IMG/VR virus record: IMGVR_UViG_3300023210_000017
Location: 29,689 to 93,688 of that record
Length of the DNA: 64,000 nt
Source of the DNA: a virus
Strand: one strand, 5' to 3'
In this document: in pieces, positions 48,086 to 56,001 of the stretch
Layout: every line of letters starts with the position of its first letter
Numbering within the stretch: the stretch's first letter is position 1
Translations under genes and position numbers: made by a program
The notes under the pieces: generated by a model
The model's input: only the letters and a program-made list of their open reading frames with translations
Database searches by the model: none
What the model was told of the DNA's origin: nothing

Positions 48086-49210
48086 TTATTTATCTAATCT
48101 AAATCCGTGGCACACTGGAAATCTTGGTATACCATCTTCACTATATTCAAAGAATCTTATCTCTGCAGTTTTACCAATGTAATCAGCTTTATTAATTAAT
48201 ATCTCCTCACGTTCAGCATGAGAAAACTTCATTCCACAACCAAATGTACCTTTATCATTTTCACAGTGCACTACACCTTGTTCTGGATTCTTATCTGAAG
48301 GTAGTACATCTATTACATTACAAGAAATATCTATAAAATCTTTATATTTTAATAATTGACTATCTCTTTTATTAATAGCATATCCAGCATCACTGTGTCT
48401 TACAATTGTTCCTTCATATCCTTGAGATATAAATTCACCATGTAAACGTTTTAAGGCTTCTTCATCAGCTACAACATATGTTTTGACTAATTCAATAGCA
48501 TCTACATAACTGGCTAAACTTTTAAGGATTTTAAATCTTTCTATAAAAGGAATATCTAACACAATGTCATACACGCAAAACTTTACTTTTTCAGTCTCTT
48601 CACCACGGTCTTTTTTAATAAGCCTCATGTTTTCTTGAAATGACTCACCGTGTACATACAATTCACCATCTAAATAATTATCATTTAGTTCCTGTGAAAC
48701 ATTTGGAAGAGCATCTTCAATGTGTTTCATTGTATCTATAGATTTTCCTTTTCTTGATATAAATCCTGACTTTTTATTGTATAAAGCCCTCATTCCATCT
48801 AATTTTGGTTGAATAACGCATGGAAACTTAATTTTATGAGATTCTTTTTTATAATCTTTAGCCAACATAGGTAGAATTACTACATTATTTTCAGCTTCTT
48901 CAATTGTTTTAAAATAACCCTGAGTCATTTTATTTTTAATTTTAGATGTTGCTTCTAATATAGCTTGCTGTTCAGGCGTTGTTTCATTAGATTTACCAGT
49001 ATTTTTTCCTTCACAAGTATGAACATGATTAATCATATTTTCACTACCGTGTACTCCAGAATTTTGAATTACATCAGCACCTTTATTATAAACGTGTAAT
49101 ACACGCACTTTTCCTTTACTATCTTTTTTATAGATTTTTTTTGAAAATGATTTTATTTGATCATTCATAATTGCATTTTTAATAATTTTTGATTTTAAGT
49201 GTACTGTCAT
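48086..49210 (-). CDS. ATP-dependent DNA ligase with N-terminal extension (start may be ATG 49168)
   Basis: PMLA, QPKLDGMR (motif I), LDGELY, YEGTIVR, LLKYK and an OB-fold RFP. Confidence 0.92.
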   Translation of the reverse strand: MTVHLKSKIIKNAIMNDQIKSFSKKIYKKDSKGKVRVLHVYNKGADVIQNSGVHGSENMINHVHTCEGKNTGKSNETTPEQQAILEATSKIKNKMTQGYFKTIEEAENNVVILPMLAKDYKKESHKIKFPCVIQPKLDGMRALYNKKSGFISRKGKSIDTMKHIEDALPNVSQELNDNYLDGELYVHGESFQENMRLIKKDRGEETEKVKFCVYDIVLDIPFIERFKILKSLASYVDAIELVKTYVVADEEALKRLHGEFISQGYEGTIVRHSDAGYAINKRDSQLLKYKDFIDISCNVIDVLPSDKNPEQGVVHCENDKGTFGCGMKFSHAEREEILINKADYIGKTAEIRFFEYSEDGIPRFPVCHGFRLDK

Positions 49211-49238: not shown

Positions 49239-49311
49239 TGTTACGGTAACATAAGGGTGGATGTGTACATTTCTGCACACATCCAATAACAATCAATTAT
49301 GGCTACCCTTA
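49239..49311 (-). other. Structured intergenic element: GAAA-tetraloop hairpin within an outer stem
   Basis: Minus strand GGATGTGTGCA-GAAA-TGTACACATCC (11 bp, one G-U), enclosed by TAAGGGT/ACCCTTA, next to a TGTTAC/GTAACA palindrome. Confidence 0.55.
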
Positions 49312-50544
49312 AAGTTGTACATCAGCCAAAAGTTCTCCAAAGCTTAGTTGATTAGGATCAACTTCTTTTACAGCAAATTCTTTTGAAAGTTTGATATCTG
49401 ATATATCTAATTTAAAAATATCACTTTTAGTTAATCCTATATCTGCAAATACTGTTTCAGAAATATCAACAATTGTTGCTTTATATGCAAATTCTGTTAT
49501 TGCATCATTTTCTTTTAAATATCTAAACAGTCTTTCATATGGATACATTCCTCTATTATAATCATCTTTTGTACCTGCTTTCTCTAATCTAGATCTTAAT
49601 GTTTTAACATTTACAGTATTCCAATTCTTAGCATTTCTTAAATAATAAGCATGTTTAAAATATAATAATGCAGCTTTATCTAAAGACTTTTCTATATTAC
49701 AGTTTGCTAACATTTCTAAGCCTACAGCCATATTATCTATATCTTTAGATTTAAACATAGAGTTTAAAGATTTATATTGATCTTCTGTTAATACTACAGA
49801 ATCCTCAGAGCATATTTTTGAAATATGAGAATCCATAACTAAATTATTGCTGTCACTCATACTTTTAAATGCAACAGCATCTGTTAAATATAAAGGACGA
49901 CTAATAACATCTATATCACTTATATTACTCACTTTAGTTACCCTCTTTAATGTATCAAAATTATCACTCCAATTATAATTAATAGATATATGAAAATAAG
50001 AATCTTCTGAAATTTTATTTAAAAAATTTTCTAATGAAGCTTTAGCTTGTGAATCTAAATGCTCATTAAGATCAGTAACATAATGATTGATTGCTTTTTT
50101 AGTATATACAGATTGCCATCCACCATGAAACATATTATTTATATATTTTTTAGATATAATCTTATAATCAGCTTTTGTTCTATCTCTTATAATTTTAACA
50201 TTATACTTATCTTTTAATAAATCTACTTTTGATCTTGGTAAAGTTAAATCTGGATACCTGTATAATAATTTATCTTGGATATCTGCACCTGTTATATTTA
50301 ATGCTTTATCAGATATAACAGAAAGATCCTCCTTATGATTTCCTGAAGCTGGATTTACATATAAACACTCTACACCTTGTAAATCATAATTAACTTCACT
50401 TTTTACATGCCAGTTATTTCTCAACCATTCTGTACTATATGACAAACTATCTAATAAAAGAATAGAATCTCCAGTACCTAAATCAGCTGTAGTTTCTTTA
50501 TTTATAGTTATTGATATTACATATACTTTTTTTAGTTCATTCAT
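49309..50544 (-). CDS. BRCT-like domain protein, paralogue A (411 aa)
   Basis: 'LYRYPDLTLPRSKVDLLKDKYNVKIIRDRTKADYKII' aligns with the neighbouring gene, and both share a C-terminal helical motif. Confidence 0.55.
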   Translation of the reverse strand: MNELKKVYVISITINKETTADLGTGDSILLLDSLSYSTEWLRNNWHVKSEVNYDLQGVECLYVNPASGNHKEDLSVISDKALNITGADIQDKLLYRYPDLTLPRSKVDLLKDKYNVKIIRDRTKADYKIISKKYINNMFHGGWQSVYTKKAINHYVTDLNEHLDSQAKASLENFLNKISEDSYFHISINYNWSDNFDTLKRVTKVSNISDIDVISRPLYLTDAVAFKSMSDSNNLVMDSHISKICSEDSVVLTEDQYKSLNSMFKSKDIDNMAVGLEMLANCNIEKSLDKAALLYFKHAYYLRNAKNWNTVNVKTLRSRLEKAGTKDDYNRGMYPYERLFRYLKENDAITEFAYKATIVDISETVFADIGLTKSDIFKLDISDIKLSKEFAVKEVDPNQLSFGELLADVQL

Positions 50545-51563
50545 TTTAAATATTTTTGATATTCTTTTTTTACACTTACTTTAAATGTATATAACTCTCT
50601 ATTATGTATGGAGATTTCTTGACGTATTATTTTTTCAAGAAACCTAAATGATGCTGAATCAAGTTTTTTTTCTTCTTCAAGCTTTAAAACCATTTCTTGA
50701 GCTTCTGTACGATAAAGACTATTTATATCTGCAGCGTCCATCCAATATTGAACATCTTTATCTCTTTTAAAACTATACATTCTACCTCCTATTTTTTGAG
50801 CTAAATGCCATACTAAATGAGGATGTTTTGTATAATTTATTGTTGGTAAAATTTTACCAGCAAGACTTATGTTATCATTATCTGATGAATCTAACCAATG
50901 TTCTAAATCATTAACCAATTCTTCAGTAAGATCAATTAGATTTGCTGAAGAATGCAATAATGTTTCTGAATCTAAAGTTTGCAATTGACCAGCTTCTATT
51001 AAATATGCTAAATTTATAGCAAGACCTGGAATACCACATTCATCCATTAATGAATCAGTTACATTGCAATGATAAGAGTTTGTATGTTCAGTCCATTTTT
51101 CATCATATATTACAGATTTATCATGGGTTTCAACTATATTAATTCTACCATTACTTGAATCCATAGCTTCATAATTCCATAAAGTATACATCACAGTTTG
51201 AATTTTAATTTTTTCACCGTGTTGAAATAGTTCATAAAAGTCATCATGTGTAATTATAAAATCAGCCGCTTCATAATCATTGGTAATGGTTATTTTATGT
51301 TCTTTACAAGCAGCTTTAATTCTGTCTTGAGATATGGGGCATTTAGGTAGAATAAATGCTCTTTTATAAGATTGAAAATTAGTAGAAGTTAATGTAGATC
51401 CTGCTAAAATATCTTTTATTTTATTATATGTAGTTACATCTTGGGTTATAAGCACGTCATCAACTTGATTTGAAGTGATGAGCCCAAACATAGGCTCATC
51501 CTCCAATCCAAAGTGAATAAGTGCATCTAAATTGTATTCTTGATATACTGATTTATTTGCCAT
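50541..51563 (-). CDS. BRCT-like domain protein, paralogue B (340 aa)
   Basis: 'AFILPKCPISQDRIKAACKEHKITITNDYEAADFII'; shares the helical motif with 49309-50544 and 54006-54383. Confidence 0.55.
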   Translation of the reverse strand: MANKSVYQEYNLDALIHFGLEDEPMFGLITSNQVDDVLITQDVTTYNKIKDILAGSTLTSTNFQSYKRAFILPKCPISQDRIKAACKEHKITITNDYEAADFIITHDDFYELFQHGEKIKIQTVMYTLWNYEAMDSSNGRINIVETHDKSVIYDEKWTEHTNSYHCNVTDSLMDECGIPGLAINLAYLIEAGQLQTLDSETLLHSSANLIDLTEELVNDLEHWLDSSDNDNISLAGKILPTINYTKHPHLVWHLAQKIGGRMYSFKRDKDVQYWMDAADINSLYRTEAQEMVLKLEEEKKLDSASFRFLEKIIRQEISIHNRELYTFKVSVKKEYQKYLK

Positions 51564-51564
51564 A

Positions 51565-52833
51565 TTATTTTATTGTCATCTTGATAATTTCTGGTTTCAT
51601 CATCAATTTATTAAATTTTTGCTTGTTTCCGTTGAAAATAGTTCTTACAACTAAGTACTTAAGATCATTAGTAAAATAATCTTTTGTACAAAGAGCTTCT
51701 AATCTATCAGTGATCTTTTGTGTAATTGTATTTTCTTTAGAATAAACAACTGAATAATTAGCTAATCTTGTAGCTAATGTTGACGCAATGTCTGCACGAT
51801 AATTATCATCTTTACCTACACATCCTGTTAACTCACCAAGAATATAAGACTCATTATCATGAGTTAATAGATCTTTTGGAGTAACAAGTTTATCTAACTT
51901 ATTATTAATAAAAACTGTAAACATTGATGCAAATTCATCACCTACAGATCCTTCACCAATCATTTGAATGTATGGTAAATTATCTTCAAAATTTTCAAAA
52001 CTTGATATTGAATTAAAGAATGTAGTAATTGCTCTTGCATTTGTTTCTTGTGTTACAAGCTCAGGATGTAATAATAAAAAGTTAATACATCTTGAATCTA
52101 TCCCAGCTTCTTCTGCCCAACGAGCCCATACATCTACATCAAATTGAAGATTAGCTGTTATGTATCTTGTTTTTTGTGCTGAATCAACTGAATTAACCAT
52201 ATAATCTCCAGTATCTGGATTTGCTGTTAATACAATATGCCAATCTTTAGGAAGAGACCATGAAATATATGTTTGTCTGTCAACTAACTCCATACATGCT
52301 TGAATAAATCTAACATCTGCACGGTTCCAATCATCTAATAATAAAATACCACCGGCTTTTTTATCAGCAATCCATTCTGGTGCACAATAAGACATTCTAT
52401 TCTTACCTGTCATCTTATAACCATTTTTTAAATAGTCAGCTACAGCAAGTTCATTAACCCATTGGCCAACTTTTTTTGTAACAGTATTTTGTGACATTTT
52501 TGTTAAATCTTCAGAAGCAGCTGCTTGAGATGAATATTGTATATCATCAGATTTACCAACTTTTACAACTTGCTCTTTATACATTTGAAATTGTCTTGTT
52601 GGAAATCCAACTAAATCACCAAGCTCTTCAATTTGAGCTAAATTTAATTTTACAAAATCTAAATCATGTTCTTCAGCTATTTCTTTAACTGTAGATGTTT
52701 TTCCAATTCCAGATTCACCCAATACTTCTATTGAGACAGGAAGCTTTCCTTCTTTTTGTAAAAATCTATTGTTATTAATAATGTGACCCATAAATCCTTT
52801 TAGGTCGTCAATGTTTAAATTTACTTGTGCCAT
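51565..52833 (-). CDS. MoxR-like AAA+ ATPase
   Basis: Walker A GESGIGKT, Walker B ILLLDDWNR, sensor 'LTANP' and Arg finger 'DSAQKTR'; adjacent to a VWA gene. Confidence 0.85.
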   Translation of the reverse strand: MAQVNLNIDDLKGFMGHIINNNRFLQKEGKLPVSIEVLGESGIGKTSTVKEIAEEHDLDFVKLNLAQIEELGDLVGFPTRQFQMYKEQVVKVGKSDDIQYSSQAAASEDLTKMSQNTVTKKVGQWVNELAVADYLKNGYKMTGKNRMSYCAPEWIADKKAGGILLLDDWNRADVRFIQACMELVDRQTYISWSLPKDWHIVLTANPDTGDYMVNSVDSAQKTRYITANLQFDVDVWARWAEEAGIDSRCINFLLLHPELVTQETNARAITTFFNSISSFENFEDNLPYIQMIGEGSVGDEFASMFTVFINNKLDKLVTPKDLLTHDNESYILGELTGCVGKDDNYRADIASTLATRLANYSVVYSKENTITQKITDRLEALCTKDYFTNDLKYLVVRTIFNGNKQKFNKLMMKPEIIKMTIK

Positions 52834-52857
52834 AATTGTTTTTTTATTAATTTGTTT

Positions 52858-54012
52858 TTAGTTTAATTGTATTTTTTGTCCTGGTAATTCATCATTTATA
52901 CTGCATGCAGAACTATGCACCCATAAAGTATTATTTGGACATTTGTCTGGAGTTCCTGCTTCTCCATCTGTAAAATAGATGAGAGCTGTATATCTTCCAA
53001 ACTCATTATAATGGTCTATAACAGGTTGGAATATTGTCCCACCTCTACCATGTATTTCCCAATCTTGTTTAGGATTAAAATCCTTAACTGAGTTTATTTT
53101 TGTATCACATTGAACAATTGTAATTTTATGTCCAGTTTTATGCATGTGAGTCAATTCACTAAAAAATTCTTTTAATTCATTTTGACTTACAGAACCTGAT
53201 GTATCTACACCAACACATATGTGATTTTTAAATTTAATTTTAAGACCAGGGCTACCTGAATATCTTTTGTTATACTTCCGTCTGATCTTCTTTGTAAAAA
53301 CAATAGAAGAGTTTCCAACAAATCTGCGTAAATATCCTTTCCAATCAAATTTTGCAGGTTCAACATGTCTTAGTCTTTGAATAAGATCTGCTAACTCTCC
53401 AGGTATGCTACCACATCTTTTTTCTGTTGTGTCAGCATTTTCTTTGACTTGATGATCAATCTGTTTTTGAATTAACTTTTTTTCAGCTTCAGGGATATCC
53501 TCAAAATCATCCCAAGTAGGATGACAATATGGAGAATTACCATCCATTTCATCTAAAAGTGAATCTAAAGCTGGACAAGAACCATCTTGACGGGCCTCTT
53601 CTAACATTTTATAATATACTTTAGTTCCAGCTCTACAAGGAAAGTTTATTTCAGGAAAAGAATCAAATGTTAATCCGCCTTCTGGAAGATCTGAACTATC
53701 TATGTATTGATTAATTTCTAAATCAGCTGCTATATTAAATAGTTTATGATCACTGTACATATCTCGCATAATTAAATGCCCAAAACTTATATGAAGTAAT
53801 TCATGTTTTAATAAACCAACTCTATGTCTTTCACTTAAAGAATTAAAAAAATCAGGATTTACTGTTAATTGTACGCCTATTCCATTCTTGCTGACACCAG
53901 CTGTAGGAATTTTATCTGTGAAGGATTTATTTAATCCAACTAAAAAAAGCCCGTAAAAGGGCTCTTCAAATATTAAGTTTTTACTTGTTTTTGAAACTAA
54001 GTCTGCTACCAT
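52858..54012 (-). CDS. Metallopeptidase-VWA fusion protein (DUF2201-like)
   Basis: 'LKHELLHISFGH' (HExxH), 'NIAADLEIN', MIDAS 'VDTSGS', 'GRGGT' and 'YFTDG'. Confidence 0.88.
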   Translation of the reverse strand: MVADLVSKTSKNLIFEEPFYGLFLVGLNKSFTDKIPTAGVSKNGIGVQLTVNPDFFNSLSERHRVGLLKHELLHISFGHLIMRDMYSDHKLFNIAADLEINQYIDSSDLPEGGLTFDSFPEINFPCRAGTKVYYKMLEEARQDGSCPALDSLLDEMDGNSPYCHPTWDDFEDIPEAEKKLIQKQIDHQVKENADTTEKRCGSIPGELADLIQRLRHVEPAKFDWKGYLRRFVGNSSIVFTKKIRRKYNKRYSGSPGLKIKFKNHICVGVDTSGSVSQNELKEFFSELTHMHKTGHKITIVQCDTKINSVKDFNPKQDWEIHGRGGTIFQPVIDHYNEFGRYTALIYFTDGEAGTPDKCPNNTLWVHSSACSINDELPGQKIQLN

Positions 54013-54383
54013 TTTTTATTGTTTTTGTTTATGTCATCTATATTAGGATGAAAGCTCGGATTATATATTAATTTTTTATAAATTAATTTGTAATTATTTT
54101 TATAAGCACTTTTATCTTTACTTATATTTCTAACTATATTATGTGTTGTTAAACTTTCCCAAGTTTCAGTATTATATGGTAAATCAAAGTATGCACTATA
54201 AGATACTCTTTCAGTAAAAAATAAAAGTTTTAAAAATAACATATGATATATGTCCGTCATATTCATATTTTTTATAGTCACGTATGCTAAATCTCTATCT
54301 TCAATAGTTGATTCAATCATTTTTAGTAATCTCTTAAATGTTTTAAGATCAATATCTAATTCATTTTTTACTTCACTTGTCAA
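54006..54383 (-). CDS. Hypothetical protein (125 aa) carrying the helical motif shared with the BRCT-like paralogues
   Basis: 'IDLKTFKRLLKMIESTIEDRDLAYVTIKNMN'. Confidence 0.6.
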   Translation of the reverse strand: MTSEVKNELDIDLKTFKRLLKMIESTIEDRDLAYVTIKNMNMTDIYHMLFLKLLFFTERVSYSAYFDLPYNTETWESLTTHNIVRNISKDKSAYKNNYKLIYKKLIYNPSFHPNIDDINKNNKKW

Positions 54384-54760
54384 GATTTAATAATTTTAAT
54401 TTCTACACCGGGATTTACTTTATCATATAAGTAAGGTTCAAATACAGGTATTATATTTTCCATATTATCATCTTCAATCCAATTATATGTGACCATATCA
54501 TCTTGGGTTGTTTGAGCTGGATTAATATAATCAAACTTATGTTTGCTGCCTCTAATGAAAGTAAAAGAGACTTTAACAGGTAGTGTATGCTTTTTTAATT
54601 CTTCTTTAAATTCTGGAGCATATTTTTCAAAAAAAGATTTAGTATCTTTTCTATATTTCATAGTAGATTTACTTGCTATAAAGTACTTGCCTGTCCAACG
54701 TCTTCCATTTTTACTAGACGGAACATTCCCTGGTATAAACCATTTTTTTTCTTTTGCCAT
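54380..54760 (-). CDS. RusA-like Holliday junction resolvase
   Basis: 'IPGNVPSSKN', 'FDYINPAQTTQDDMV...WIEDDN' and a terminal 'VEIKI' strand. Confidence 0.78.
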   Translation of the reverse strand: MAKEKKWFIPGNVPSSKNGRRWTGKYFIASKSTMKYRKDTKSFFEKYAPEFKEELKKHTLPVKVSFTFIRGSKHKFDYINPAQTTQDDMVTYNWIEDDNMENIIPVFEPYLYDKVNPGVEIKIIKS

Positions 54761-54761
54761 A

Positions 54762-55736
54762 TTATTTGTGTATAGTCTTCTTAAGAAGAGATTTTAATTC
54801 ATCATGGACTTTTTCCCATCCATAATTTTTAACAGCATCTGAAGGATCTTTGCTTAAGCTAATTGTTGTGCCATCTAGATTATATAATTCTTTATATTTA
54901 TCTATAGCATTTTTTCCTGCTGTATCATTATCAAAAAGTGTTATTACTTTTTTATATTTATTTTTCAAATTTTCAATTATATGAGGTTTTATCATTGTAT
55001 TTTCACTGTCTGGAGCAATTAACTCTACATTATATCCAAATTCATCTAAACACATTATATCTTTTAAAGATGATGTTATTATTAAATAAGGTTTATTATA
55101 TTGTAATTGATCTATACCTTGAATATGAGATGCTACTTTATGAAACTTATGTTTTTTATTAAACGGTTGGTAAATTTTATATAATTCACCAGACTTATTA
55201 TAATACCCATACATTGAAGATGATTGAATTTTTATTTTATTTAATTTATCATCATCCTGTTTAATCATATTGTAATATTCAATAGGAGCTACATTATATT
55301 TTTCAAGCATAGTTTTACCTATTCTATATTGAAGCCAATATTTTACATCTATTTGATTCCAGTCTCTTGTTTTTATTAATTCAATTTCCCATTTAGCAGC
55401 CACTTTAAAAGATACATCTATTGTGTTACTCTTTATAAAGACATTATAGTCTTTGATCATTTTTTCTATAGAATCTGAATAATTTAAATTAAATAACTTT
55501 TGAATTAAATTAATTTTATTTCCTCCAGTACCAGTTGAAAAATCTTTAAACATATAACATTGCTTTTGCGTATCTACATATATGCACATACTAGGAGTTT
55601 TTTCAATTGGATTCCACGGAGATGTTATTTTTAAATCTTGACCAGTGAGAGATTCCTCTATATTGAGATAATACTGAAAAACCCAATAACTTGGAATATC
55701 TGATTCTCTTACAACTAAGTTTTTAGTATTTATCAT
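54762..55736 (-). CDS. dnaG: DNA primase (Toprim)
   Basis: N-terminal 'SPWNPIEKTPS...FKDFSTG', Toprim 'ITSSLKD', 'LFDNDTAG' and 'KDPSD'. Confidence 0.85.
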   Translation of the reverse strand: MINTKNLVVRESDIPSYWVFQYYLNIEESLTGQDLKITSPWNPIEKTPSMCIYVDTQKQCYMFKDFSTGTGGNKINLIQKLFNLNYSDSIEKMIKDYNVFIKSNTIDVSFKVAAKWEIELIKTRDWNQIDVKYWLQYRIGKTMLEKYNVAPIEYYNMIKQDDDKLNKIKIQSSSMYGYYNKSGELYKIYQPFNKKHKFHKVASHIQGIDQLQYNKPYLIITSSLKDIMCLDEFGYNVELIAPDSENTMIKPHIIENLKNKYKKVITLFDNDTAGKNAIDKYKELYNLDGTTISLSKDPSDAVKNYGWEKVHDELKSLLKKTIHK

Positions 55737-55747
55737 ATTATAAATTT

Positions 55748-55789
55748 AAAAAAAAAGGAATAGACAATTTTATATGTCTATCCCTTTTA
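55748..55789 (-). terminator. Intrinsic terminator
   Basis: Minus strand AAAAGGGATAGACA-loop-TGTCTATTCCTTTT followed by a long U run. Confidence 0.8.
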
Positions 55790-55794
55790 GATTT

Positions 55795-56001
55795 TTACTC
55801 TTTTTCTGCAACTACTTCAGCGTCTGGAGAAACAGCATCAGCTGATTCTTCAATTACAACTTCAATAACAGCTTCTTCAACTACAACTTCTGCAATTTCT
55901 TCTACTGCTGGTGCAGCATCAGATGTAGCTTCATGTGTATCTGAATCATTACAAGAATAAAGTGCACAAAGTGCAAATAAACTAAAAAATAACTTTTTCA
56001 T
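55795..56001 (-). CDS. Small acidic lipoprotein
   Basis: Signal peptide MKKLFFSLFALCALYS|C (lipobox) followed by a low-complexity E/A/V/D tail. Confidence 0.7.
   Translation of the reverse strand: MKKLFFSLFALCALYSCNDSDTHEATSDAAPAVEEIAEVVVEEAVIEVVIEESADAVSPDAEVVAEKE

What the first reader, a model, noticed from the sequence alone, without database searches (positions are those of the whole stretch)
49309..54383. Five-gene MoxR-AAA / metallopeptidase-VWA module with three partner proteins sharing one helical motif
Seen: a MoxR-like ATPase and an HExxH+VWA protein are flanked by three uncharacterised genes carrying an alignable motif. These are 411 aa 'VLTEDQYKSLNSMFKSKDIDNMAVGLEMLANCN' (about 49695-49795), 340 aa 'DLTEELVNDLEHWLDSSDNDNISLAGKILPTIN' (about 50835-50935) and 125 aa 'DIDLKTFKRLLKMIES-TIEDRDLAYVTIKNMN' (about 54262-54360). 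All five genes overlap or lie within about 25 nt of each other. Established: MoxR ATPases use VWA proteins as adaptors to remodel client proteins, and MoxR-VWA ternary systems are linked to biological conflict. Inference: the shared motif is a docking or client tag, and the unit is a phage-encoded chaperone/protease machine placed between resolvase/primase and ligase. It could remove protein-DNA adducts, assemble the replisome or disable host defences.
Basis: partly seen in the sequence, partly recalled or inferred. Interest (0 to 1): 0.82.

Follow-up and report, generated by a model that had tools for sequence, protein, structure and literature searches.

The report
Phage remodelling engine with three partners
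An uncultured marine phage carries a very conserved ATP-driven motor and a protease-adaptor protein, flanked by three fast-evolving proteins that keep one small helical module; the same module marks the partner proteins of related bacterial gene cassettes, so it may be the handle that couples partners to this widespread but unexplained machine.

Summary
Five tightly packed minus-strand genes (49309-54383) encode a small protein, an HExxH-zincin/VWA protein (DUF2201_N+DUF2201), an AAA+ ATPase of the AAA_5/midasin/MoxR kind, and two larger proteins.

Pairwise BLASTP does not support the shared motif. Profile comparisons do, all in one register:
- small vs 411 family: E 8e-6
- 340 vs 411 family: E 3e-3 over 139 columns, so these two are paralogues
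- small vs 340 family: not significant alone

All 81 related viral loci keep the block. The motif model hits only the three partner positions among 13,029 ORFs.

Outside the clade, bacterial (Bacteroidota) ATPase/VWA cassettes have a neighbour with BRCT + the same module + LRR. In five such genomes, all 10 module hits lie within 5.4 kb of the single DUF2201 gene. Among 200 other genomes of that phylum, 0 had the module and 10 had DUF2201.

ATPase and VWA are the best-conserved genes of the block; the partners evolve fastest.

Most likely this is a three-component remodeller/protease with the module as the partner's coupling handle. The ATPase/VWA pair is in print. I found no paper on the partner family, though this scan noted it before on other DNA.

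The parts
54006..54383 (-). Small partner protein (125 aa). Its N-terminal 45 residues are the shared helical module (54261-54356). Translationally coupled to RusA upstream and to the VWA gene downstream.
   Evidence: ORF. A positional orthologue lies just upstream of the VWA gene in 76 of 76 loci that cover the region. 74 of those carry the module; the other two (L039, L041) have an unrelated 52-aa ORF. hhalign against the 411 family: E 7.9e-6. Overlap read.
52858..54012 (-). Zincin (HExxH) + VWA protein of the DUF2201_N + DUF2201 type, with an intact MIDAS motif.
   Evidence: Pfam PF13203 and PF09967, both above cut-off. phrog_1314 at 1.7e-63. H70, E71, H74, H79, D270, S272, S274, T326 and D349 are invariant in 11 diverse homologues. 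27% identical to N4 gp25, E 4e-19.
51565..52833 (-). AAA+ ATPase of the AAA_5/midasin/MoxR-like kind. Walker A is GESGIGKT. Walker B reads LLLDDWNRA, with D-D where the aligned N4-like (SBP1) and Moorella phage homologues have D-E and E-E.
   Evidence: phrog_1297 at 1.1e-33. Profile A5 hits midasin at 4e-14 in the PDB. N4-like and Moorella homologues pass Pfam AAA_5. hhalign to N4 gp24: E 2e-4. 79-88% identity among 25 loci. Motifs read.
50541..51563 (-). Partner p340: a BRCT-like segment (about 51240-51365, residues 67-108), the helical module (50838-50936, residues 210-242) and a strongly conserved C-terminus.
   Evidence: 334 homologues, none with a Pfam domain among the 120 listed. Alignment A1. 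The BRCT part of the bacterial partners aligns to A1 71-99 with score 22.3, against a shuffle maximum of 15.3. Pfam BRCT is weak in 3 of 26 members.
49309..50544 (-). Partner p411, a paralogue of p340: a BRCT-like segment (about 50140-50274, residues 91-135) and the helical module (49699-49797, residues 250-282).
   Evidence: 115 homologues. 947 clusters at 50% identity with E<=1e-3. hhalign to the 340 family: E 0.0029 over 139 columns, plus a collinear N-terminal piece at E 0.04. The 340-family HMM hits L085's p411 at 3e-6 over model positions 36-251.
49258..49285 (-). 12-bp hairpin about 20 nt after the p411 stop; a possible 3' end of the transcription unit.
   Evidence: Terminator-like scan; sequence read. 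The tail is not T-rich, so its function is uncertain.
55753..55788 (-). 14-bp hairpin followed by a T-run, just upstream of primase. With the hairpin above it brackets primase, RusA and the five genes.
   Evidence: Terminator-like scan: 14 sites found against 2.8 expected in shuffles.
54380..55736 (-). Context: RusA-like resolvase (54380-54760) and DnaG-type primase (54762-55736), directly coupled upstream.
   Evidence: Pfam and PHROG hits. The same order is seen in every related locus that covers this region.

Best explanation
The five genes are a phage version of a three-component system with these parts:
1. An AAA+ motor of the AAA_5/midasin/MoxR kind.
2. A zincin protease fused to a VWA adaptor domain with an intact metal-ion site (MIDAS).
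3. A partner component defined by a helical module of about 45-65 residues.

In related bacterial cassettes the partner is one large protein, or two, built as BRCT + module + leucine-rich repeats, usually with two copies of the module per system. In this phage clade the partner has become three genes. Two are paralogues with a BRCT-like front and no LRR (p340, p411). The third is a small protein that is little more than the module.

Shown here:
- the homology of the module
- its strict linkage to the ATPase/VWA pair
- the conservation contrast between the engine and its partners

Inferred:
- The module is the handle by which partners are coupled to the VWA/ATPase engine.
- The BRCT-like parts point the partners at DNA ends or phospho-proteins of the replication and recombination apparatus, whose genes surround the block.
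- The motor and zincin then remodel or cut the partner, or what the partner holds.
For: Module homology:
- small vs 411 family scores 42.8 against a null maximum of 17.3; 340 vs 411 family scores 30.7 against 24.1; all in one register.
- out-of-sample locus L085.
- the small-family HMM finds p411 at E 1.8e-4. That is the best non-self hit among 1,549 six-frame ORFs of the whole 93.7-kb genome plus three other phage loci.

Linkage inside the clade:
- All 81 loci keep the order small - VWA - ATPase - p340 - p411 wherever the contig covers it.
- The motif HMM (E<=0.01) hits only those three positions among 13,029 ORFs in 1.15 Mb.

Linkage outside the clade:
- Of 58 out-of-clade VWA loci in bacterial assemblies, 9 have a module-bearing ORF beside the pair. 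Four of those loci supplied or duplicate the model.
- Pfam finds BRCT above cut-off in three of these proteins and LRR families in five.
- Their profile matches the 411 family (Prob 94, E 1.5e-7, 153 columns) and the small family (E 1.5e-4), with the motif in register.
- In 5 whole genomes (13.7 Mb), all 10 module-covering matches lie within 5.4 kb of the single DUF2201 gene. The other 4 matches cover only the BRCT part and lie on other contigs.
- In 200 other genomes of the same phylum the module was found in 0 and DUF2201 in 10. The module was never seen without the pair.

Conservation (32 loci), median identity to the window's protein:
- ATPase 80.6%
- VWA 70.9%
- RusA 67.7%
- primase 57.9%
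- PD-(D/E)XK 57.2%
- p340 49.1%
- p411 29.4%
- small 23.3%
The module is better conserved than the rest in the small family (0.36 vs 0.23) and the 411 family (0.535 vs 0.35).

Engine intact: HExxH and MIDAS residues are invariant. Midasin, the best solved relative of the ATPase, is known to use a MIDAS domain to grip its substrates. That last point is established knowledge, recalled.
Against:
- The engine exists without a detectable module:
  - 0 of 1,008 ORFs around the pair in six cultured phages reach E<0.05.
  - 49 of 58 out-of-clade genome loci show none, though many have short flanks.
  - None of the 10 sampled Bacteroidota genomes with DUF2201 has the module.
- In L039 and L041 the small partner is replaced by an unrelated 52-aa ORF.
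- No single acidic residue is conserved in all families. E277 of p411 is K in 84% of the 340 family, so a simple MIDAS-ligand reading is not backed.
- In p340 the module is no better conserved than the rest (0.49 vs 0.545).
- Co-occurrence inside the clade could be inherited synteny alone.
Confidence: 0.5

Rival explanations
1. The module is a homotypic association domain. It brings the partner proteins together with each other, like the paired 'effector-associated domains' of MoxR-vWA ternary systems, rather than docking on the VWA protein or ATPase.
For: - Every system seen has two or three copies. The phage has three proteins with one copy each. The proteins in L102, L106, L107, L098 and L099 each carry two copies, and L092 has two proteins with one each.
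- Kaur et al. 2020 (PMC7159879, passages read) describe non-enzymatic domains that recur in adjacent genes of MoxR-vWA systems, and read them as adaptors.
Against: - It does not explain why the module is never found away from the pair. That fits docking equally well or better.
- No Pfam family of that paper's domains matched.
- There are no interaction data either way.
Confidence: 0.25
2. The motif is only a structural helix hairpin (HEAT/ARM-like) inherited by paralogues. The five genes are neighbours by descent and need not work together.
For: - p340 and p411 are paralogues.
- 9 of 113 members of the 411 family give weak hits to the HEAT-like family PF08713 (best E 0.022).
- Small vs 340 is not significant alone.
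Against: - The same module sits beside the same gene pair in bacterial chromosomes with unrelated surroundings, such as sensor kinase, T9SS and carboxypeptidase genes, and in both gene orders.
- It is absent from the rest of 13.7 Mb and from 200 sampled genomes.
- The genes overlap or abut.
Confidence: 0.12
3. The pair is a virion-assembly chaperone and processing protease, as proposed for group 2.2 jumbo phages, and the three partners are assembly factors.
For: - Iyer et al. 2021 (PMC7824862, passage read) propose this for MoxR + metallopeptidase-vWA pairs, citing the archaeal virus ATV.
- In cyanophage S-TIM5 the pair lies next to Hsp20 and a gene annotated as a virion structural protein.
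Against: - Here the block lies inside the replication and recombination genes, on their strand, coupled to RusA and primase.
- In an N4-like Vibrio phage (SBP1) and a Moorella phage the pair lies beside DNA helicase genes, with a DNA polymerase nearby in SBP1. In N4 a helicase gene lies about 9 kb downstream.
- N4 gp24/gp25 are called middle transcripts (PMC4193335, passage read).
- The bacterial cassettes have no virion.
Confidence: 0.08

Closest known systems
Phage MoxR-type ATPase + metallopeptidase-vWA pair (PHROG 1297 + 1314; N4 gp24/gp25; group 2.2 jumbo phages, Iyer et al. 2021, PMC7824862)
   Same: The two engine proteins are homologous: VWA to N4 gp25 at E 4e-19, ATPase to N4 gp24 at hhalign E 2e-4. 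They share the HExxH + MIDAS architecture. tblastn finds the VWA protein in 360 phage records.
   Different: - No module-bearing partner was detected beside the pair in six cultured phages.
- p340 and p411 have no match in 50,697 phage records.
- This clade's ATPase has a roughly 65-80-residue insert between Walker A and B, and D-D in Walker B.
MoxR-vWA 'ternary' conflict systems (VMAP, iSTAND and others; Kaur, Burroughs, Iyer, Aravind 2020, PMC7159879)
   Same: - Three-component logic: a MoxR-like ATPase, a vWA protein and a third, faster-evolving component.
- The same non-enzymatic domain recurs in adjacent genes.
- The bacterial relatives carry repeat (LRR) partners.
   Different: - Gene order differs: here VWA, then ATPase, then partners.
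- The vWA domain is C-terminal to a zincin and carries no C-terminal effectors.
- No VMAP or iSTAND family matched.
- Here the VWA protein and ATPase are the slowest-evolving genes. In that paper the vWA component evolves fast.
- BRCT is absent from that paper's text and LRR appears only in its reference list.
Midasin/Rea1 (AAA_5 ring with a MIDAS domain)
   Same: It is the best solved sequence relative of the ATPase profile (E 4e-14, summed over several AAA modules). It pairs an AAA_5 motor with a MIDAS domain that grips substrates (recalled).
   Different: Midasin is one giant eukaryotic chain with six AAA modules and no protease. Here the motor and the MIDAS protein are separate, and the MIDAS protein carries a zincin.
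Chaperone-like MoxR/VWA couples (CbbQ-CbbO, NorQ-NorD, RavA-ViaA, ATV p618/p892)
   Same: An AAA+ motor plus a VWA adaptor acting on a specific client. They are cited as such in PMC7911831 (passages read).
   Different: None of these carries a zincin on the VWA protein, and none has BRCT/LRR partners with this module (recalled, not tested). Pfam AAA_3, the MoxR model, is not met here.

Membership tests
DUF2201_N + DUF2201 (zincin-VWA) | Pfam PF13203 and PF09967 above their gathering scores | tested here: met
   59 bits (cut-off 23.2) and 57 bits (cut-off 26.4).
DUF2201_N + DUF2201 (zincin-VWA) | HExxH and MIDAS (DxSxS...T...D) residues present | tested here: met
   H70, E71, H74, H79, D270, S272, S274, T326 and D349 are invariant in 11 diverse homologues.
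MoxR AAA+ ATPase | Match to Pfam AAA_3 (PF07726) at its cut-off | tested here: not met
   10.7 bits, E 0.025, against a cut-off of 27.
AAA_5 (dynein/midasin-related AAA+) | Match to Pfam PF07728 | tested here: inconclusive
   There is no match on this genome at E<=10. Homologous ATPases of an N4-like phage and a Moorella phage do pass (23.7 and 24 bits, cut-off 22). The joint profile's best PDB hit is midasin, 4e-14.
AAA+ ATPase in general | Walker A, Walker B, sensor-1 Asn and a conserved Arg | tested here: met
   G39, G42, G44, K45, N205 and R223 are invariant in 7 homologues. Walker B is LLLDDWNRA, with D in place of the usual catalytic E.
VMAP-type MoxR-vWA ternary system | Gene order VMAP - MoxR - vWA, a VMAP-C domain, and effectors C-terminal to the vWA domain | tested here: not met
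   The order is small - VWA - ATPase - p340 - p411. The VWA domain is the C-terminus. No such Pfam family matched. Whether Pfam holds a VMAP-C model is recalled, not checked.
BRCT domain (p340, p411) | Match to Pfam PF00533 | tested here: not met
   No match in the window's genome at E<=10. 3 of 26 members of the 340 family match, at best E 0.048. BRCT is not among the 25 families listed for the 113 members of the 411 family.
BRCT domain (p340, p411) | Profile similarity to a bona fide BRCT | tested here: inconclusive
   The comparison used the BRCT part of the bacterial partners, which passes Pfam at 23.3-40.2 bits.
- Against the 340 family: score 22.3, with a null mean of 11.3 and maximum of 15.3, but only 29 columns.
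- Against the 411 family: 13.3 with a null mean of 11.8, so not supported.
HEAT/ARM-like repeat (the shared module) | Two antiparallel helices with the repeat signature | not testable with these tools
   The resemblance is recalled. The only hint is weak PF08713 hits in 9 of 113 members. No structure model could be made.
Leucine-rich repeat partner (as in the bacterial cassettes) | Pfam LRR families C-terminal to the module | tested here: not met
   There is no LRR family on p340 or p411. LRR is present in L092, L094, L099, L102 and L107.

The most novel reading that the evidence does not exclude
The module is the universal recognition handle of an adaptor-guided, ATP-driven protease. Partners with BRCT or LRR fronts would pick targets: DNA ends or DNA-bound and phospho-proteins in the phage, foreign proteins in the bacterial cassettes. 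Through the module they would deliver those targets to the VWA/zincin + AAA_5 motor for extraction and cleavage. That would make this a prokaryotic and viral counterpart of the Wss1/SPRTN-Cdc48 or midasin logic. It would also assign a first function to a gene pair that is core to N4-like phages.
Probability: 0.15. Interest if true: 0.8.

Novelty: new variant of a known kind. Interest (0 to 1): 0.6.

Why it matters
The ATPase + zincin-VWA pair is widespread but has no known client or function. tblastn finds it in 360 phage records, it includes N4 gp24/gp25, and it occurs in bacterial cassettes.

A partner family marked by one small module gives concrete candidates for what the machine binds. 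The module was found only beside the pair. It is joined to BRCT and LRR recognition domains in bacteria and to BRCT-like domains in a phage replication block. That makes the question testable by pull-down and cleavage assays.

I found no paper on this partner family in the searches, or in the passages read. Supplementary tables of those papers were closed and may list it.

Tried and rejected
Searches that gave nothing useful:
- Pairwise BLASTP among the three partners: not significant.
- blastn of the block against 50,697 phage records: no match.
- tblastn of p411 and p340 against the same records: no match.
- Pfam, PHROGs, NCBIfam and PADLOC on the three partners: nothing usable. The best were phrog_15042 at E 0.0059 and PD-Lambda-5_A at E 0.0016, both weak and not followed.
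- PDB sequence-profile searches with the 411 and 340 families: only chance-level hits. The VWA protein alone gave none.
- ESM Atlas: the p411 model has pLDDT 0.35 and no feature hit reached 0.9. There is no model and no hit for p340.
- The representative search with the 411-family profile gave 947 clusters, but only the best 150 are listed and all are family members. The distant tail could not be inspected.
- Two distant p411 relatives were used to fetch more loci. P0365 found none. P0377 gave L085.
- Rfam scan for group I introns in four loci with split genes: none at gathering score.
- Sequencing runs: no RNA holder listed.
- phmmer of the window's primase, RusA, ligase and nuclease against the out-of-clade genome loci: no shared replication context, apart from one ligase hit in L124.

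Rejected readings:
- 'HNH endonuclease', the PHROG 1314 label. The protein is a zincin-VWA by Pfam.
- A defence system in the phage. There are no PADLOC hits on four of the five proteins, and only P-loop-level hits on the ATPase.

Full report
WHAT IS THERE.

The window is part of a 93.7-kb IMG/VR virus record, CheckV completeness 81%, with about 29% G+C. On the minus strand lies an uninterrupted run of genes:
- primase, 54762-55736
- RusA-like resolvase, 54380-54760
- a 125-aa protein, 54006-54383
- an HExxH/VWA protein, 52858-54012
- an AAA+ ATPase, 51565-52833
- a 340-aa protein, 50541-51563
- a 411-aa protein, 49309-50544

Then comes a 98-nt gap with a hairpin. After it follow an ATP-dependent ligase, a PD-(D/E)XK nuclease, two small genes and a DNA polymerase.

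Junctions inside the five-gene block are overlaps of 7 and 4 nt and gaps of 24 and 1 nt. RusA overlaps the small gene by 4 nt. The small gene's last codons (AAA TGG TAG) contain the VWA start codon.

Two strong minus-strand hairpins, at 55788-55753 and 49285-49258, bracket primase through p411. The likely unit is therefore seven genes, not five.

THE TWO ENZYMES.

The 384-aa protein carries Pfam DUF2201_N (putative metallopeptidase) and DUF2201 (VWA-like), both above cut-off. It matches phrog_1314 at 1.7e-63. That PHROG's label, 'HNH endonuclease', is a misnomer that recurs in RefSeq records. In an alignment with ten homologues, from this clade, two N4-like Vibrio phages, a Moorella phage, phage G and cyanophage S-TIM5, these residues are invariant: HExxH (H70, E71, H74), H79, and the MIDAS residues D270, S272, S274, T326 and D349.

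The 422-aa protein matches phrog_1297 (1.1e-33). In Pfam it matches only the P-loop end of PF00004, at 21 bits. Pfam AAA_5 finds nothing in this genome, and AAA_3, the MoxR model, reaches 10.7 bits against a cut-off of 27. Its homologues in an N4-like phage and a Moorella phage do pass AAA_5. A joint profile finds midasin as the best solved relative, at 4e-14. So 'AAA_5/midasin/MoxR-like' is fair, but 'MoxR' as family membership is not shown.

Walker B reads LLLDDWNRA in all 25 clade members aligned. The aligned N4-like (SBP1) and Moorella homologues have D-E and E-E at that position.

N4 gp25 and gp24 are homologues (E 4e-19; hhalign E 2e-4).

THE SHARED MOTIF.

BLASTP between the three unannotated proteins is not significant. 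I therefore collected families:
- 334 homologues of p340
- 115 homologues of p411
- only 7 of the small protein by search, but 53 distinct positional orthologues taken from 76 syntenic loci

Profile-profile comparison gave:
- small vs 411 family: Prob 83.8, E 7.9e-6, residues 7-51 against 248-296
- 340 vs 411 family: E 0.0029 over 139 columns, from the motif to the C-terminus
- small vs 340 family: E 0.11

Forty column shuffles per pair gave null means of 12.0, 16.5 and 12.7 and maxima of 17.3, 24.1 and 21.6. The real scores were 42.8, 30.7 and 16.9. Two comparisons are clearly above chance, and the third is not on its own. All three place the motif in exactly the same register.

A second, collinear piece joins the N-terminal segments of p340 and p411 (E 0.04).

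The merged motif aligns without internal gaps across 192 sequences. The pattern is hydrophobic positions, then S-x-(D/N)-x-(E/D)-(D/N), then a second helix with a small residue and N/T.

INDEPENDENT CHECKS.

- The small-family HMM alone finds p411 at E 1.8e-4. That is the best non-self hit among 1,549 six-frame ORFs of the whole genome plus three other phage loci; the next is 0.68.
- L085 is a more distant relative not used in any model and has the whole block. The motif HMM hits its three partners and nothing else. The small-family HMM hits its p411 at 2.5e-6. The 340-family HMM hits its p411 at 3e-6 over model positions 36-251. So p340 and p411 are paralogues over most of their length.

CONSERVATION OF THE BLOCK.

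In 80 viral loci found with the 340 family, plus L085, the order is primase - RusA - (0-2 extra genes) - small - VWA - ATPase - p340 - p411 - (0-2 kb) - nuclease, wherever the contig covers it.

The motif HMM (E<=0.01) hits only the three partner positions among 13,029 ORFs.
- Small partner: hit in 75 of 81 loci. Four loci lack the region. In L039 and L041 an unrelated 52-aa ORF stands there.
- p411: hit in 77 of 81 loci. In the other four the contig ends first.

The ligase is not found next to the block in any of the 80 loci.

Median identity to the window's proteins over 32 loci:
- ATPase 80.6%
- VWA 70.9%
- RusA 67.7%
- primase 57.9%
- nuclease 57.2%
- p340 49.1%
- p411 29.4%
- small 23.3%

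The engine is the most conserved part of the replication block, and the partners are the least. The module is better conserved than the rest in the small and 411 families, but not in the 340 family.

BEYOND THE CLADE.

An earlier follow-up note of this scan (e1-5976816) said the same module marks the partners of bacterial versions. I tested that.

A scan of species-representative genomes with the VWA alignment gave 63 loci. Five belong to this phage clade, binned into MAGs.

Among the other 58, nine have a module-bearing ORF beside the pair: L092, L094, L102, L103, L106, L107, L098, L099 and L128. Four of these supplied or duplicate the model used.
- Pfam finds BRCT above cut-off in three of these proteins: 23.3, 28.1 and 40.2 bits against a cut-off of 21.3.
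- Pfam finds LRR families or DUF285 in the others.
- The layout is BRCT, then about 40 residues, then the module, then LRR.
- The surroundings are ordinary bacterial genes.

A profile of these proteins matches the families as follows:
- 411 family: Prob 94, E 1.5e-7
- small family: E 1.5e-4
- 340 family: two weak collinear pieces (BRCT segment E 0.015; motif E 0.074)

The controls split that profile in two:
- Module part: 45.2, 32.4 and 18.6 against null maxima of 26.9, 16.6 and 16.8.
- BRCT part: 22.3 against a maximum of 15.3 for the 340 family, but 13.3 (null mean 11.8) for the 411 family.

In the five whole genomes that hold L092, L102, L106, L107 and L099 (13.7 Mb), all 10 matches covering the module lie within 5.4 kb of the only DUF2201 gene. 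The four other matches cover only the BRCT part and lie elsewhere, three of them in intact 667-705-aa ORFs and two interrupted by stop codons. They look like NAD-ligase BRCT domains, which I did not check.

In 200 further genomes of the same phylum the module was found in 0 and DUF2201 in 10.

Around the pair in six cultured phages no module was detected.

So the module was never seen without the pair, while the pair is often seen without the module.

READING.

The data fit a three-component system in which the module is what all partners have in common, while their other domains (BRCT, LRR, DUF285, or nothing) vary. I think the module is most likely the coupling handle to the VWA/ATPase engine, with confidence 0.5.

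A homotypic role is the main rival, because every system has two or three copies.

The replication-block position suggests that the clients are DNA-bound or replication proteins. Supporting context:
- the pair lies beside helicase genes in an N4-like Vibrio phage and a Moorella phage
- N4 gp24/25 are reported as middle transcripts (PMC4193335, passage read)
- p340 has a BRCT-like front

This is inference. In S-TIM5 the neighbours are Hsp20 and a gene annotated as a virion structural protein. Iyer et al. 2021 propose virion assembly for jumbo phages (PMC7824862, passage read).

LIMITS.

- There is no structure model and no gene-neighbourhood look-ups.
- There are no expression data.
- The fold of the module is unknown; the HEAT-like resemblance is recalled.
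- No universally conserved acidic residue was found.
- Supplementary tables of the papers were closed.

NOVELTY.

The pair is in print (PMC7824862; the general MoxR-vWA logic in PMC7159879 and PMC7911831, passages read). I found no paper on the partner family or its module in the searches. This scan has noted the same block on other DNA, with several first-stage notes and one follow-up.

Noticed in passing
L033 4502-5597; L018 4273-5402 (also L010, L029, L079; L019, L020): In some relatives the ATPase gene is split right after Walker B by a ~1.1-kb insert with a GIY-YIG-like ORF. The VWA gene is split inside HExxH by a ~1.1-kb insert with a LAGLIDADG-like ORF. These look like homing-endonuclease insertions at the most conserved codons. 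Rfam found no group I intron at gathering score.
   Followed up: partly
window 51565-52833 (Walker B near residue 167): Walker B is D-D (LLLDDWNRA) in all 25 clade ATPases, where the N4-like and Moorella homologues have D-E and E-E. The clade also has a ~65-80-residue insert between Walker A and B.
   Followed up: partly
phrog_1314; N4 gp25, S-TIM5 gp056, phage G gp576: The zincin-VWA protein is labelled 'HNH endonuclease' in PHROGs and in RefSeq phage records. Pfam gives DUF2201_N + DUF2201 and no HNH.
   Followed up: yes
L018 6319-6705; L033 3578-3964: An extra 128-aa ORF is inserted between the VWA and ATPase genes in some relatives. Its function is unknown.
   Followed up: no
L085 12240-13862: A 540-aa ORF that reads like a GroEL-type chaperonin lies about 2 kb downstream of the block in a divergent relative. 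This was judged by eye, not by a family search.
   Followed up: no
L005-L013, L027-L032 and others, between RusA and the small gene: Many relatives carry one or two extra genes (about 115 aa and 116-127 aa) between RusA and the small partner. The window has none.
   Followed up: no
window 48086-49210: The ATP-dependent ligase next to p411 has no counterpart at this place in any of 80 related loci. It looks like a lineage-specific insertion behind the hairpin at 49258-49285.
   Followed up: partly
window 55795-56001: A 68-aa ORF with a lipoprotein-like signal (…LYSC) and a very acidic Ala/Glu/Val tail lies just upstream of the hairpin that precedes primase.
   Followed up: no
run X11: Besides many seawater metagenomes, one run filed under a coded single organism holds 58% of the block's sampled words. 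It could point to a host or a culture.
   Followed up: no
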